This document shows, in pieces, positions 3,740 through 51,443 of a stretch of 64,000 nt of DNA. The stretch lies in NCBI RefSeq assembly GCF_009914755.1, contig NC_060943.1; one strand, 5' to 3'. The DNA is from the human T2T-CHM13v2.0 reference genome, Homo sapiens. A program made the position numbers and the translations under genes. The first letter of the stretch is position 1; each line of letters begins with the position of its first letter. The notes under the pieces were generated by a model that was not told the DNA's origin, made no database searches, and was given only the letters and a program-made list of their open reading frames with translations.

Positions 3740-4508
3740 TGACCTGCCGCCTCAGCCTCCCAAAGTGCTGGGATTACAGCACTTTGGCATGAGCCACTGG
3801 GCCCAGCTTTTTTTTTTTTTTTTTAAAGAAATGGAGTCTGGCTCTGTCGCCCAGGCTGGAGTGCAATGGCGTGATTGCAGCTCACTACAGCCTGGAACTC
3901 CTGGGCTTAAGCAGTCCTCCCACTTCAGCTTCCTGAGTAGTTGCAAATACAAGCATGCACCAGCACACTCAGCTAATTTTTTAATTTTTTTAGCGATGGG
4001 CTACCGCTATGTTGCCCAGGCTGGTCTCAAACAACTGAATTCAAGCAATCCTTCTGCTTTAGCCTCCCAAAGTGCTGGGATTTCCAGCATGAGCCACCAC
4101 ATCTGGCCCCCTTTCATCTTAAAATGCTTCCCATTCTGTTTTGGGTGCCCCATATCTGACCTTTACCCTATCTGTCATTGCGGGATGCTGACAAGGACAG
4201 TGTGGCTCAATGTGGGTTTCTGTTGTCAAGATACCACAAGGGCATGGAACCAGAAGGGGGCTGTCAGTTTCTGACTGGCTGCAGCAGCTTATCAGAACGT
4301 ATCACAGATCAGGAGAGGACGATATGATCAACGGATGAGGTAACCATCAGCTGAGGGCAAACAGCTCCTAACTAAAGTCAGCACTTTACAGCTGGCTCCA
4401 GTGCACTCTCCCTGTGGCTGCAGGCAGAGCAGCCAGGGCCCCTCCTCCAGCCTCCTTTCCGTCCTTCCAACACAGCAGTTTCTCCCACCTCAGAGCTTCA
4501 GAGCTTCA

Positions 4509-7269: not shown

Positions 7270-7440
7270 TAGAAAGAGCTCAACCACTGACTTTCCTCTT
7301 TTTGACCACATGACTCTTCCAGGTATAAAAGCCTGCCGTTGGTGGAAAAGGAAAAGGTGGTCCAGTTAGACAAGATGCCACCGGCTTCTGAAACCAGACA
7401 TCTTTGAAAACCCACCCATCTACCTGCAGGAAAAGGCAAG
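7270..7440 (+). promoter_or_regulatory. FFAR2-paralogous promoter and exon-1 module of unit 1 (E-box CACATG 7307, TATAAAA 7324, GC donor 7436)
   Basis: 7286-7334 aligns ungapped to 48925-48973 at 34/49. E-box-to-TATA offset is 17 nt in both. Donor is AAAG|GCAAGG. Confidence 0.8.
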
Positions 7441-7969
7441 GGACCTGACCTCGCCTGGGCTCAGGGAAGAGGTTGCTGGGATCATAACCCCAGGAAGAGA
7501 CGGGATGGAAGGAGAGCATGCAGGGAGCAGAGGACAGGCTACTCTCCAAGGAGGAGAGGGAAGAGGCCACAGAAATGGAAAAGGGGCCAGGACAAGTCAG
7601 TGGAGAGATGGTCAGGGCCTGGCGAGGAGGAGCAGGACAAAAGCGGTGGAGCTCAGCCCCGTGGCGGCAGGGCCACTCCCATTCATCTGGTCCTCTACTT
7701 CTGAAGTTCTCGAATGCAGAATGAGATGTACAGATGGGCCAGCAGGTGATATGCTATCTGTCATAGGTTAAGGCCTCATTATTTTATTCATTTTTAAACT
7801 TTTTTTTTTTTGAGACCGGGTCTTGTTCTGTCGCCCAGGCTGGTTTGCAGTGGTGCCACCATGGTTCACTGTAACCTTGAAGCCCCTGGGCTCAAGTGAT
7901 CCTCCTGCCTCAGCCTCCAGAGTAACGAGGACTACAGGTGCACACCGCCATGCCCAGCTAATTTCTTAA

Positions 7970-8107
<138 letters not shown>

Positions 8108-8147
8108 TAAATGTTTACCTTTCAATGATCACTTCGAGGAGATTTAA

Positions 8148-8390
<243 letters not shown>

Positions 8391-8451
8391 TAAAGTGATC
8401 TGCCTGCCTCAGCCTCCCAAAGTGCTGGGAGGCATGAGCCACCATGCCTGG

Positions 8452-9317
8452 CTCATTGTCTAGTTTTTACCAAGAAGACGATGAGATATGCCAGAGGGCT
8501 CCGTATCTGCTATGAGAACGTCCCCCAAGAGCAGCTGGCCGTGGTGCTGCAGCTGGAGCTGTGCTTGGAGCTCTTCTTCACCCCCATGGCGGTCACCACC
8601 TTCTGCCACTGGCACTTTGTGCAGATCATGCTCTCCTGGCCCCAAGTGGGGACCTGGAGGTGCTGAAGAGCCAAGAGACTGGCTGCCGTGACCCTCTTCA
8701 ACTTCCTGGTCTGCTTGGACCCTGTGCTTTGTCTCCCGTGGTGGGTTCCCCCAGTGGAAGAGTCAAATTGGTGGGCAGGCGCAGTGTTGTTCAGTGCTCT
8801 CGATGCTGCATTGACCCCTTGATTTTCTTTGTTTTTGTTTTTATTTTGTTTTGTTTTGTTTTTGAGATGGAGTCTCGCTCTGTCACCCAGGCTGGAGTGC
8901 AGTGGTGTGATCTTGGCTCACTGCAACCTCCGCCTCCTGGGTTCTCCTGCCTCAGCCTCCCGGGTAGCTGGGATTACAGGCACCCACCACCACACCCGGC
9001 TAATTTTTGTATTTTTAGTAGAGACGAGGTTTCAACCCCTACTCAGGCTGGTGTCAAACTCCTGACCGCAAGTGATCTGCCCACCTTGGCCTCCCAAAGT
9101 GTTGCAATTACAGGCGTGAGCCACCATGCCCAGCCTAACCCCTTGATTTTCTGTTTCTCTTCCTCCACCGTGCGCAAAGCCTTTGACAGAGGGCCACGGA
9201 GGTGGCAGCACGGCGGGGGTCTCACTGTCTGGGTGGTGGTGAAAGCTCTGGAGAGCCAGCTGCAGAGAGAAGATGTGGATCTTAGGGACGGCCAATGTCA
9301 CCTTCACAGGAGATTAG
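8452..9317 (+). pseudogene. FFAR2-like pseudogene, unit 1 (end of TM4 to C-terminus), Alu-interrupted
   Basis: Translates as [69 protein letters not shown] / [10 protein letters not shown] / [19 protein letters not shown] ... NVTFTGD*. FFAR2 has TCYENFTDNQLDVVLPVRLELCLVLFFIPMAVTIFCYWRFVWIMLSQPLVG...DPLLFYFSSSVVRRAFGRG...SDFTTE*. Stops at 8461 and 8664, frameshifts near 8716 and 8812, Alu at 8829-9135. Confidence 0.95.
8829..9135 (-). mobile_element. AluS-type element inserted into the TM7 DPxxF codons of pseudogene unit 1
   Basis: Full Alu with 17-bp TSD T(G/A)ACCCCTTGATTTTCT at 8812-8828 and 9136-9152. Confidence 0.95.
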
Positions 9318-10229
9318 AGGCGCCAGCTTGGGGTAACCTTTTGGGGAAGGAGGGCTCAAAAAGAGGAACAATGAAACAGAACTAAGGTGAGTTCTCCTGT
9401 GCCCAGTTTCAGAGGTCAAGGAGAGTAGTAGATAGCTCAAACCCAACTCAGCCATTGAGTGAGTGTTTTCATTTTGTTCCTTGGGGTCTATGATATTTTC
9501 TATTTTCTTTTCTTTCCTTTTGTTTTGGTTTGTTTGTTTGGTTGGTTGGTTGGTTGGTTTGTTTTAGAGACAGGGTTTCCCTCTGTCACCCAGGCTGGAA
9601 TGCAGTAGTGTGATCACATCACACTGCAGCTTCTAACTCATGGGTTCAAGCCATCCTCCTGCCTCAGCCTCCTGAGTAGCTGGGACTCCAGGTGCACGCC
9701 ACCATGGCCGGCTAATTGTTTATTTTTTATAGAGACAGGGTTTCACTATGTTGGCCAGGATGTTCAACAACTTCTGCCTTCAAGCGATCTTCCCTCCTGG
9801 GCTCCCCAAGTGCTGAGTTTACAAGCATCAGCCACCACACCCAGCCTATGACATTTTCTTCATTATGGCTGGTACTGCCTCATGGTAAGCCACAAGCCTT
9901 TTTATCTTGTAATATCAGAGTCTTGGAATTCTTTATCTTCCCTACTCTATATCTAGAAGACAGTAGCACTGACTTATCTGCTGCAGAGCTCTTAATTCTA
10001 TCCTTGGCCCCGATTCAGAAAAGGGGGTTCCTCATGCTGGATCTGAACAACCCAGCACAGGCAAGTCTGGGGAGCAAGGCAGGAGCCTGCATGTGGACTC
10101 AAAGGACCGGCACCCGAAACAAAGCAGTGGCTGGCACAGGTGGACAAACCAGGCAAGAAAAGCAACTGTCCTTCGGAGCAGAGTCCACGTGATGGGAAGA
10201 AACAGGTCATGATACTTTTGAGTGGTTAC

Positions 10230-16290: not shown

Positions 16291-17565
16291 TGCACAAGCC
16301 TGTATATTCATTGCTTTATGCTCATCCTTGTTCTAAAGATTAGCCTTTTGCCCATTTTCTAATTGAATTGCTTGATTGTGTTTTGTTTTACTATTGAGTT
16401 TTGTGAGACATTTATTTAGAGTGTCTCGCTCTGTTGTCCAGGCTGGGGTGCAGTGGCATGATCTCAGCTCACTGCAACCTCCGCCTCCCGGGTTCAAGTG
16501 ATCCTCCCTCTTCAACCTCCTGAGTAGCTGGGATTACGAGTGTACACCATCACACCTGGCTAATTTTTGTATTTTTAGTAGAAATGGGGTTTCACCATGT
16601 TGGCCAGGCTGGTCTCAAACTCCTGACCTCCTCAAGTTGATCAGCCCACCCCGGCCTCCCGAAGTGTTGGGATTACAGGCGTGAGCCACTGCACCAGCCA
16701 ACACTGAGTCGTATTTCTTTAGATTTTTGTGATTGATGTTCCCATTATGCTTCTCTCTCACTGAATCTCCTACCTTCTTCATCAGAGGCAGCGTCATACT
16801 GGACTTTAAGTGCATCCTTCCTGTCCATGATTTTAAATTGTACCTTGCAAATATACTTTGCACCTAAACACTGTTTAGTATTCTTTTGCGTTTTTTCAAA
16901 TATCCATAAATACCTATAGTACAAGTCATTCTGCAACTAGCTACTTTCTACCCCAAATCATCCCTTTGCTATCTGGCCTCCATCACTAAACCTTACATAT
17001 CTCATTGATTTATTTTGTCTGCTCTAGCAGTCCATCATATTAATAAGACGAGTTTTATTTTTTCCATTCTACTATTGATAGACATTTAAATCACTTCCCA
17101 TTCTTTGCCAGCATGACAATGCTGCTTTGAACATCCCTGTGTGTGTCTCTTCGCGCACACGTGGAAGAGTTCTTCCACTGGTAGGCACAGCATTTGCATT
17201 CTCCATTTCAGTAAAAGCTGCCAAGGTCCTCTTCAACGTGATGGCGTAAATCCAGCTCTTTCTGCAAGAAGGCTCACCAGCCTTCCCACCAGCTCTTCTC
17301 CCCACCCCAGCCCTGCAGCCCTGCAGCCTGACCCTAGGTAATGAGTGGTGGGGAGTGACCCAGGCATGCACGACCTGCCCAGAGGAAAGGGAGTTCAAAG
17401 AAGGACCCGAGACCCTCACAGGAACCTAGCAGATTGGCACAAGTGCCAGATGTATCCAGGACAGACACTTTCCCCAGGACTCCAGGGGTAAAGGAGTGCC
17501 CCACCTCTCCACTCCTTGCCTTTCTTAACTGAATTCAGATTGTCGTGAACATTCAAGAAAAGCAT

Positions 17566-50450: not shown

Positions 50451-51443
50451 ATGCTGCCGGACTGGAAGAGCTCCTTGATCCTCATGGCTTACATCATCAT
50501 CTTCCTCACTGGCCTCCCTGCCAACCTCCTGGCCCTGCGGGCCTTTGTGGGGCGGATCCGCCAGCCCCAGCCTGCACCTGTGCACATCCTCCTGCTGAGC
50601 CTGACGCTGGCCGACCTCCTCCTGCTGCTGCTGCTGCCCTTCAAGATCATCGAGGCTGCGTCGAACTTCCGCTGGTACCTGCCCAAGGTCGTCTGCGCCC
50701 TCACGAGTTTTGGCTTCTACAGCAGCATCTACTGCAGCACGTGGCTCCTGGCGGGCATCAGCATCGAGCGCTACCTGGGAGTGGCTTTCCCCGTGCAGTA
50801 CAAGCTCTCCCGCCGGCCTCTGTATGGAGTGATTGCAGCTCTGGTGGCCTGGGTTATGTCCTTTGGTCACTGCACCATCGTGATCATCGTTCAATACTTG
50901 AACACGACTGAGCAGGTCAGAAGTGGCAATGAAATTACCTGCTACGAGAACTTCACCGATAACCAGTTGGACGTGGTGCTGCCCGTGCGGCTGGAGCTGT
51001 GCCTGGTGCTCTTCTTCATCCCCATGGCAGTCACCATCTTCTGCTACTGGCGTTTTGTGTGGATCATGCTCTCCCAGCCCCTTGTGGGGGCCCAGAGGCG
51101 GCGCCGAGCCGTGGGGCTGGCTGTGGTGACGCTGCTCAATTTCCTGGTGTGCTTCGGACCTTACAACGTGTCCCACCTGGTGGGGTATCACCAGAGAAAA
51201 AGCCCCTGGTGGCGGTCAATAGCCGTGGTGTTCAGTTCACTCAACGCCAGTCTGGACCCCCTGCTCTTCTATTTCTCTTCTTCAGTGGTGCGCAGGGCAT
51301 TTGGGAGAGGGCTGCAGGTGCTGCGGAATCAGGGCTCCTCCCTGTTGGGACGCAGAGGCAAAGACACAGCAGAGGGGACAAATGAGGACAGGGGTGTGGG
51401 TCAAGGAGAAGGGATGCCAAGTTCGGACTTCACTACAGAGTAG
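50451..51443 (+). CDS. FFAR2: Free fatty acid receptor 2 (GPR43), class A GPCR for short-chain fatty acids, 330 aa, intronless CDS
   Basis: ORF MLPDWKSSLILMAYIIIFLTGLPANLLAL...SSDFTTE* with 7 hydrophobic helices, ERY, CFGPYN and DPLLFY motifs, and the carboxylate-binding H140/R180/H242/R255. The ATG at 50451 follows a polypyrimidine tract and CAG acceptor (AG 50448-50449). The extra 5 aa in the ORF track are intronic. Confidence 0.99.
   Translation: MLPDWKSSLILMAYIIIFLTGLPANLLALRAFVGRIRQPQPAPVHILLLSLTLADLLLLLLLPFKIIEAASNFRWYLPKVVCALTSFGFYSSIYCSTWLLAGISIERYLGVAFPVQYKLSRRPLYGVIAALVAWVMSFGHCTIVIIVQYLNTTEQVRSGNEITCYENFTDNQLDVVLPVRLELCLVLFFIPMAVTIFCYWRFVWIMLSQPLVGAQRRRRAVGLAVVTLLNFLVCFGPYNVSHLVGYHQRKSPWWRSIAVVFSSLNASLDPLLFYFSSSVVRRAFGRGLQVLRNQGSSLLGRRGKDTAEGTNEDRGVGQGEGMPSSDFTTE

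What the first reader, a model, noticed from the sequence alone, without database searches (positions are those of the whole stretch)
8452..9317. Unit 1 is a well-preserved FFAR2-like pseudogene whose ligand-binding arginines decayed by CpG mutation
Seen: colinear from LIV*FL (FFAR2 IIVQYL) to the stop (FTGD* at 9315-9317 vs FTTE*). The codon aligned to R180 is CAG and the one aligned to R255 is TGG, each a single CpG transition from CGG. The H242 position reads CCC, and the TGA at 8664 fits CGA decay. Established: R180/R255/H242 coordinate the SCFA carboxylate in FFAR2. Inference: the ancestral gene was a true carboxylate-sensing receptor with a divergent ECL2 and C-tail, possibly the lost human orthologue of the FFAR2-like (FFA2L) receptor I recall from pig.
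Basis: partly seen in the sequence, partly recalled or inferred. Interest (0 to 1): 0.78.

Follow-up and report, generated by a model that had tools for sequence, protein, structure and literature searches.

The report
Dead human FFA2L receptor gene remnant
This stretch is the broken back half of a third short-chain-fatty-acid receptor gene (FFA2L) that pigs, tarsiers and many other mammals still have but humans have lost, and it now sits as passive cargo inside a long non-coding RNA.

Summary
Window 8452-8828 plus 9153-9317 is an FFAR2-family coding remnant (tblastn E 7e-25; profile iE 7e-32).

It is not a recent FFAR2 copy. In a 72-row tree it sits inside the eutherian "FFAR2-like" clade that contains the second pig paralogue (SH-aLRT 100), as sister to the tarsier protein (86). 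An AU test rejects grouping it with FFAR2 (p 0.0035). Its C-tail and stop position match that clade.

Two points do not hold:
- **"Well-preserved".** About 144 N-terminal codons are absent from the window and from the human genome search. The rest carries a 309-nt Alu, about 7 frameshifts, 2 premature stops and a 6-nt deletion.
- **The TGA at 8664.** It aligns to Trp in 18 of 20 paralogue-tier proteins, so TGG>TGA fits better than CGA decay.

Verdict: a unitary pseudogene of FFA2L inside LINC01531 exon 2, probably dead since early anthropoid evolution. It is a solid identification of modest novelty.

The parts
8452..8828 (+). FFA2L remnant, part 1: end of TM4/ECL2 through the start of TM7 (about codons 145-271). 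It holds TAG 8461, the 6-nt deletion next to CAG 8550, TGA 8664, and frameshifts near 8473, 8715, 8750-8762 and 8805-8815.
8829..9152 (-). Antisense Alu (8829-9137) plus the second copy of its 15-nt target-site duplication (9138-9152; first copy 8814-8828). It splits the remnant inside the TM7 DPLIF motif. Non-CpG divergence from the window's Alu consensus is 7.6%.
9153..9317 (+). FFA2L remnant, part 2: TM7, helix 8 and the FFA2L-type C-tail up to the orthologous stop TAG at 9315-9317. Frameshifts lie near 9209-9215, 9237-9240 and 9280-9283.
8550..8552 (+). CAG in the R180 column, next to a 2-codon deletion.
8735..8737 (+). CCC in the H242 column (frame 2, after the -1 shift near 8715).
8772..8774 (+). 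TGG in the R255 column.
8664..8666 (+). Premature TGA. The column is Trp in 18 of 20 paralogue-tier proteins and Arg in FFAR2.
8162..8451 (-). Antisense Alu whose head abuts the 5' end of the remnant and marks the 5' truncation. No obvious target-site duplication was seen by eye. Non-CpG divergence is 5.3%.
7323..9884 (+). LINC01531 exon 2 (hub's RefSeq table). It contains the whole remnant in the sense orientation. About 21% of it is remnant (542 of 2562 nt) and about 47% is Alu (four copies).
   Evidence: hub annotation

Best explanation
This is the unitary pseudogene of FFA2L (FFAR2-like), a second FFAR2-type short-chain-fatty-acid receptor. FFA2L arose by duplication before the placental radiation and is still intact in pig, tarsier, galago, tree shrew, squirrels, carnivores, cetaceans, afrotherians and others. 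In the human lineage the gene lost function and has drifted neutrally. The 5' 44% of the coding exon is gone, and an Alu sits at the breakpoint. A second Alu landed in TM7. Frameshifts and two stops accumulated, and CpG-containing Arg codons, including the two carboxylate-binding arginines, decayed to CAG, CAC, TGC and TGG. It encodes no receptor. It survives as part of exon 2 of the lncRNA LINC01531, 41 kb upstream of FFAR2 on the same strand. Shown here: homology, clade membership, the lesions and the loss of constraint. Inferred: the timing (early anthropoid), the ancestral codons, and that the RNA has no function that depends on this stretch.
For: - **Homology.** tblastn E 7e-25, profile HMM of 20 paralogue-tier proteins iE 7e-32, whole-genome search E 1.1e-26 with 2 TGA inside.
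- **Closest relatives.** All 10 database hits to the fragment are paralogue-tier proteins. In frameshift-aware alignment to 71 labelled proteins the top 13 are all paralogue tier. Tarsier P0006 is best with 112 of 176 identical, against 94 of 188 for human FFAR2.
- **Tree.** In the 72-row tree the remnant is inside the 19-row clade (SH-aLRT 100) and sister to the tarsier protein (86). The result is the same with FFAR3/FFAR1 outgroups (99 and 88). The AU test rejects remnant plus FFAR2 clade (delta lnL 56, p 0.0035).
- **Shared characters.** The C-tail (GVSLSGWW ... [11 protein letters not shown], then stop) matches the FFA2L tail and end point. Four of 5 strictly diagnostic columns carry the FFA2L state. 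R201H is shared only with the tarsier protein.
- **Loss of constraint.** 12 of 54 columns invariant in 18 clade members are changed in the remnant, against 0-2 of 54-56 for each intact member. CpG observed/expected is 0.34, against 0.48 for the same part of FFAR2.
- **Only copy.** There is one such locus in the human genome, lying within the FFAR cluster (hub table).
- **Ancestral function.** R180, H242 and R255 are invariant in 20 of 20 paralogue-tier rows. The pig FFA2L paper's title calls it a functional SCFA receptor (seen only as a citation).
Against: - Seven of 20 paralogue-tier rows score below human FFAR2: Erinaceus, Eschrichtius, Galemys, Suncus, Rangifer, Capra and Condylura.
- Two paralogue-tier rows (Capra, Rangifer) fall outside the core clade.
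- One of 5 diagnostic columns carries the FFAR2 state.
- The remnant is a long branch (0.56) and the trees are quick searches, so the sister position to tarsier is only moderately supported.
- That P0108 is the published pig FFA2L is inferred. Its database name is generic and the paper was not readable.
- No orthologous primate DNA was available, so the date and order of the lesions, and the CGG ancestry of the Arg codons, are untested.
- Synteny in other species rests only on equal contig lengths for both paralogues in 12 species.
Confidence: 0.9

Rival explanations
1. It is a recent primate-specific partial duplicate of FFAR2 (as GPR42 is of FFAR3) that then decayed.
For: It lies 41 kb from FFAR2 on the same strand (hub table). 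Human, Saguinus and Saimiri FFAR2 are the best-scoring FFAR2-tier rows (332, 328 and 318).
Against: - Only 72% nucleotide identity to FFAR2.
- No similarity outside the CDS except Alus.
- The AU test rejects it (p 0.0035).
- The C-tail and stop are of FFA2L type.
Confidence: 0.02
2. It is a transposed or retroposed fragment of FFA2L, not the gene's original locus.
For: The coding region of this family is intronless, so lack of introns says nothing. The 5' end is truncated, as in many retrocopies. No target-site duplication was seen for the flanking Alu.
Against: It sits inside the FFAR cluster, between GPR42 and FFAR2 and in FFAR2's orientation (hub table). No other FFA2L-like locus exists in the genome. 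No A-run is seen in the 183 bases after the stop.
Confidence: 0.05
3. The remnant has been co-opted: LINC01531 needs this stretch for a function, such as regulating FFAR2 or producing a small peptide.
For: It is transcribed in sense as part of a curated lncRNA exon (hub table).
Against: Substitution, indel and CpG patterns look neutral. The exon is about 47% Alu. No paper found links LINC01531 with FFAR biology.
Confidence: 0.05

Closest known systems
FFA2L (FFAR2-like) receptor of pig and other mammals (Zhang et al. 2014, Domest Anim Endocrinol 47:108; seen only as a citation in PMC7911740)
   Same: Same clade in the tree. Same C-tail and stop position. Same diagnostic residues, for example [12 protein letters not shown] and DPLIF.
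   Different: The human copy is a 3' fragment with stops, frameshifts and an Alu. All three surviving ligand-contact positions are mutated.
Human FFAR2 (GPR43), window 50451-51443
   Same: Paralogue in the same cluster and orientation. 50-55% amino-acid and 72% nucleotide identity over the shared part.
   Different: It belongs to a different orthologue group that separated before the placental radiation. FFAR2 is intact.
GPR42, the primate duplicate of FFAR3 (PMC4531286, passages read)
   Same: Another extra copy in the same 19q13 cluster whose status as a gene or pseudogene has been debated.
   Different: GPR42 is a recent, nearly identical, intact ORF. This remnant is an ancient paralogue long dead.

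Membership tests
FFA2L / FFAR2-like orthologue group | Falls within the FFAR2-like clade and not the FFAR2 clade | tested here: met
   SH-aLRT 100 and 99 for the clade. AU p 0.0035 against the FFAR2 grouping.
FFA2L / FFAR2-like orthologue group | FFA2L-type C-terminal tail and stop position | tested here: met
   GVSLSGWW ... [11 protein letters not shown] then stop, against the tarsier, pig and squirrel tails.
FFA2L / FFAR2-like orthologue group | Position next to FFAR2 in the FFAR cluster | tested here: inconclusive
   The human locus lies between GPR42 and FFAR2 (hub table).
Functional SCFA receptor (FFAR2 type) | Intact seven-transmembrane open reading frame | tested here: not met
   TM1-4 absent. 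Two stops, about 7 frameshifts and an Alu.
Functional SCFA receptor (FFAR2 type) | Carboxylate-binding R180, R255, H242 (and H140) | tested here: not met
   Q, W and P at these columns. The H140 region is missing.
Unitary (unprocessed) pseudogene | Disabled, no intact copy of the same orthologue group in the genome, at the ancestral locus | tested here: met
   Single locus in the genome search and lesions as above. That this is the ancestral locus is inferred from its place in the cluster.
Recent FFAR2 duplicate | Groups with primate FFAR2, with flanking similarity | tested here: not met

The most novel reading that the evidence does not exclude
LINC01531 is the still-transcribed carcass of FFA2L. 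It keeps the old receptor gene's promoter and tissue pattern. The loss at the base of anthropoids is one of several independent losses of a third SCFA sensor that track changes in gut fermentation: no FFA2L-type protein was listed for lemurs, murid rodents, bats, lagomorphs or perissodactyls. Pig and other FFA2L-bearing models would then sense SCFAs differently from humans.
Probability: 0.25. Interest if true: 0.5.

Novelty: new member of a known kind. Interest (0 to 1): 0.35.

Why it matters
Humans are usually said to have two SCFA receptors of this type, FFAR2 and FFAR3, plus GPR42. This relic shows that the primate lineage once had a third, which many mammals used as models (the pig above all) still have. 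That bears on carrying SCFA pharmacology from pig to human. It also gives LINC01531 an origin and offers a datable gene loss in anthropoid evolution. It does not change what is known about how these receptors work.

Tried and rejected
- **Search for the missing 5' half.** I used sensitive blastn and tblastn of FFAR2 and five FFA2L N-termini, a profile HMM on six-frame translations and a whole-genome search. Only weak hits appeared: 4040-4135 with 4240-4281 (E 2-5) and 16796-16879 (iE 0.46). The 16796-16879 stretch is AT-rich and unlike a GPCR. The 4040 pair was not recovered by the profile.
- **Non-coding similarity between the FFAR2 locus and this locus.** Only Alus matched.
- **Dating by Alu divergence.** The window-built consensus of 59 copies separates AluS-like from AluJ-like ages but is not subfamily-specific, so it gives no firm date.
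- **Literature.** No paper on a human FFA2L or FFAR2 pseudogene, or linking LINC01531 to FFARs, turned up. The Zhang 2014 paper is not held, so whether it already notes the human remnant is unknown.
- **Not used.** No structure, complex or RNA-family tools were run, because the question was one of homology.

Full report
**What is in the sequence**

Human FFAR2 was translated from window 50451-51443 (P0001). By tblastn it hits 8508-8819 in frame 3 (aa 164-270, 55% identity, E 7e-25) and 9095-9217 in frame 2. At DNA level, identity is 72% over CDS 486-820 and 74% over 797-862. A profile of 20 paralogue-tier proteins gives iE 7e-32. A search of the window's whole genome finds the same place at E 1.1e-26 with two TGA inside. 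This is far beyond chance.

Between the two pieces lies an antisense Alu (8829-9137). It is flanked by a perfect 15-nt target-site duplication at 8814-8828 and 9138-9152. Another antisense Alu (8162-8451) abuts the 5' end of the remnant.

- LIV*FL at 8452-8469 and FTGD plus TAG at 9303-9317 are there.
- Against human FFAR2 alone, BLAST aligns WW to WW.
R180 falls on CAG 8550, H242 on CCC 8735 and R255 on TGG 8772.
- The CAG sits beside a 2-codon deletion, so its column is the most parsimonious choice, not the only possible one.
- Human FFAR2 uses CGG at both arginines.
- The TGA at 8664 aligns with Trp in 18 of 20 paralogue-tier rows (Arg in Capra and Galemys) and with Arg in 40 of 40 FFAR2-tier rows. 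All five closest relatives have Trp. TGG>TGA is therefore the better reading, not CGA>TGA.

**What it is**

A database search with the fragment, read by reference with X at the stop, returned 10 proteins. All were from a second tier of "FFAR2-like" mammalian proteins. A search with FFAR2 showed two tiers: orthologues at 76-97% identity and eutherian paralogues at 63-72%. The paralogue tier includes a second pig protein, P0108, and proteins from tarsier, galago, tree shrew, squirrels, panda, elephant, tenrec and others.

I labelled 71 rows by hand, 70 of them database proteins out of the 121 (P0002-P0122) fetched by then:
- 20 paralogue tier
- 40 FFAR2 tier, including human
- 10 marsupial
- platypus

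I left out unnamed clusters, an engineered fusion, fragments, fish proteins and further FFAR2 orthologues. The extra paralogue-tier proteins found later were not added.

Frameshift-aware scores put 13 paralogue-tier rows on top. Tarsier is first with 112 of 176 identical, and human FFAR2 is 14th with 94 of 188. Seven paralogue-tier rows score below human FFAR2.

In the maximum-likelihood tree (72 rows, quick search) the remnant lies in a 19-row clade with 18 paralogue-tier rows (SH-aLRT 100). It is sister to the tarsier protein (86). Capra and Rangifer fall outside that clade. With human FFAR3 and FFAR1 as outgroups the result is the same (99 and 88). Eutherian FFAR2 and FFAR2-like join as sisters above marsupials, but with no support.

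Forcing the remnant into the FFAR2 clade costs 56 log-likelihood units (p-AU 0.0035).

Three further characters agree:
- The C-tail and the stop are those of the paralogue tier.
- Four of 5 strictly diagnostic columns carry its state and 1 carries the FFAR2 state.
- R201H is shared only by the remnant and the tarsier protein, though this is a CpG-type change and could be parallel.

The clade holds afrotherians, laurasiatherians and euarchontoglires that each also have an FFAR2 orthologue. The duplication therefore predates the placental radiation.

**State of decay**

- No trace of about 144 N-terminal codons was found in the window or elsewhere in the genome search (in which only the best candidates are scored).
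- Along the reading path there are two premature stops (TAG 8461, TGA 8664).
- There is a 6-nt in-frame deletion.
- There are about seven frameshifts, near 8473, 8715, 8750-8762, 8805-8815, 9209-9215, 9237-9240 and 9280-9283. Their exact places vary with the protein used.
- Of 54 columns invariant in 18 clade members, 12 are changed in the remnant. Each intact member, left out in turn, shows 0-2 of 54-56.
- Of six Arg columns conserved in the clade, four read CAG, CAC, TGC or TGG, one reads AGA and one CGC.
- CpG observed/expected is 0.34, against 0.48 for the same part of FFAR2.

**Timing (inference)**

The 22-26% replacement at invariant columns corresponds to roughly 0.11-0.13 changes per site. 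The calibration is recalled and rough. It suggests neutral drift for most of the time since the tarsier split.

In agreement, the best 120 of 618 hits to the tarsier protein include no monkey or ape paralogue-tier protein. The only primates are tarsier and galago. Absence from a protein database is weak evidence.

The Alu inside the remnant (7.6% non-CpG divergence from a consensus of the window's 59 copies) and the Alu at the 5' break (5.3%) are in the younger mode. Neighbouring Alus at 7802-8094 and 9533-9848 (about 17%) are in the older mode. The Alu insertion and the truncation may therefore be later damage rather than the killing lesion. This was not tested.

**Context**

By the hub's table the remnant lies wholly inside LINC01531 exon 2 (7323-9884), in the sense orientation. 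GPR42 lies upstream, and FFAR2 lies 41 kb downstream on the same strand. The exon's acceptor and donor look canonical. Outside the coding remnant the two loci share only Alus.

**Known or new**

A duplicated FFA2 gene (FFA2L), functional in pigs and present in "some mammalian species", was published in 2014. I saw only the title, in a reference list; the paper is not held. That P0108 is that protein is my inference.

Searches for FFAR2-like, FFA2L, LINC01531, FFAR2/GPR43 pseudogene and unitary pseudogene found no description of the human remnant. The passages I read in PMC4531286, PMC4453067, PMC7840215 and PMC7344995 do not mention it. Genome-browser pseudogene tracks could not be checked.

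I rate it as a new member of a known kind: a well-supported unitary pseudogene. It is interesting for pig-to-human translation and primate gene loss, but not surprising.

Noticed in passing
window 8613-8615 (CAC): The remnant and the tarsier FFAR2-like protein alone share His at the FFAR2 R201 column. The other 19 paralogue-tier rows and all 40 FFAR2-tier rows have Arg. This is either a haplorhine shared change or a parallel CpG hit.
   Followed up: partly
proteins P0102 (Capra), P0103 (Rangifer), P0126, P0131, P0133 (Cervus, Bos, Bubalus): Two ruminant 'second-tier' proteins fall outside the core FFAR2-like clade. Other ruminant FFAR2-like proteins appear. Ruminants may have a more complex FFAR2 family history.
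   Followed up: no
proteins listed: FFAR2-like proteins show a patchy spread. They are present in tarsier, galago, tree shrew, sciurids, carnivores, pangolin, suids, cetaceans, eulipotyphlans and afrotherians. None was listed for lemurs, murid rodents, lagomorphs, bats, perissodactyls or xenarthrans, which suggests repeated independent losses.
   Followed up: no
window 7323-9884: LINC01531 exon 2 is about 47% Alu (copies at 7802-8094, 8162-8448, 8829-9137 and 9533-9848). Its splice donor at 9885 lies just past the last Alu.
   Followed up: partly
whole window: 59 Alu copies of 240 nt or more occur in 64 kb. Their non-CpG divergence from the window's own consensus falls in two modes, about 3-10% and about 11-20%.
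   Followed up: partly
proteins P0109 and P0111 (Macrotis): The bilby has two closely related marsupial FFAR2 copies (SH-aLRT 100), a lineage-specific duplication.
   Followed up: no
window 4040-4135 and 4240-4281: Two very weak tblastn hits to FFA2L aa 14-51 and 86-99 (E 2-5) are colinear in spacing. They were not recovered by the profile search and are probably noise.
   Followed up: partly
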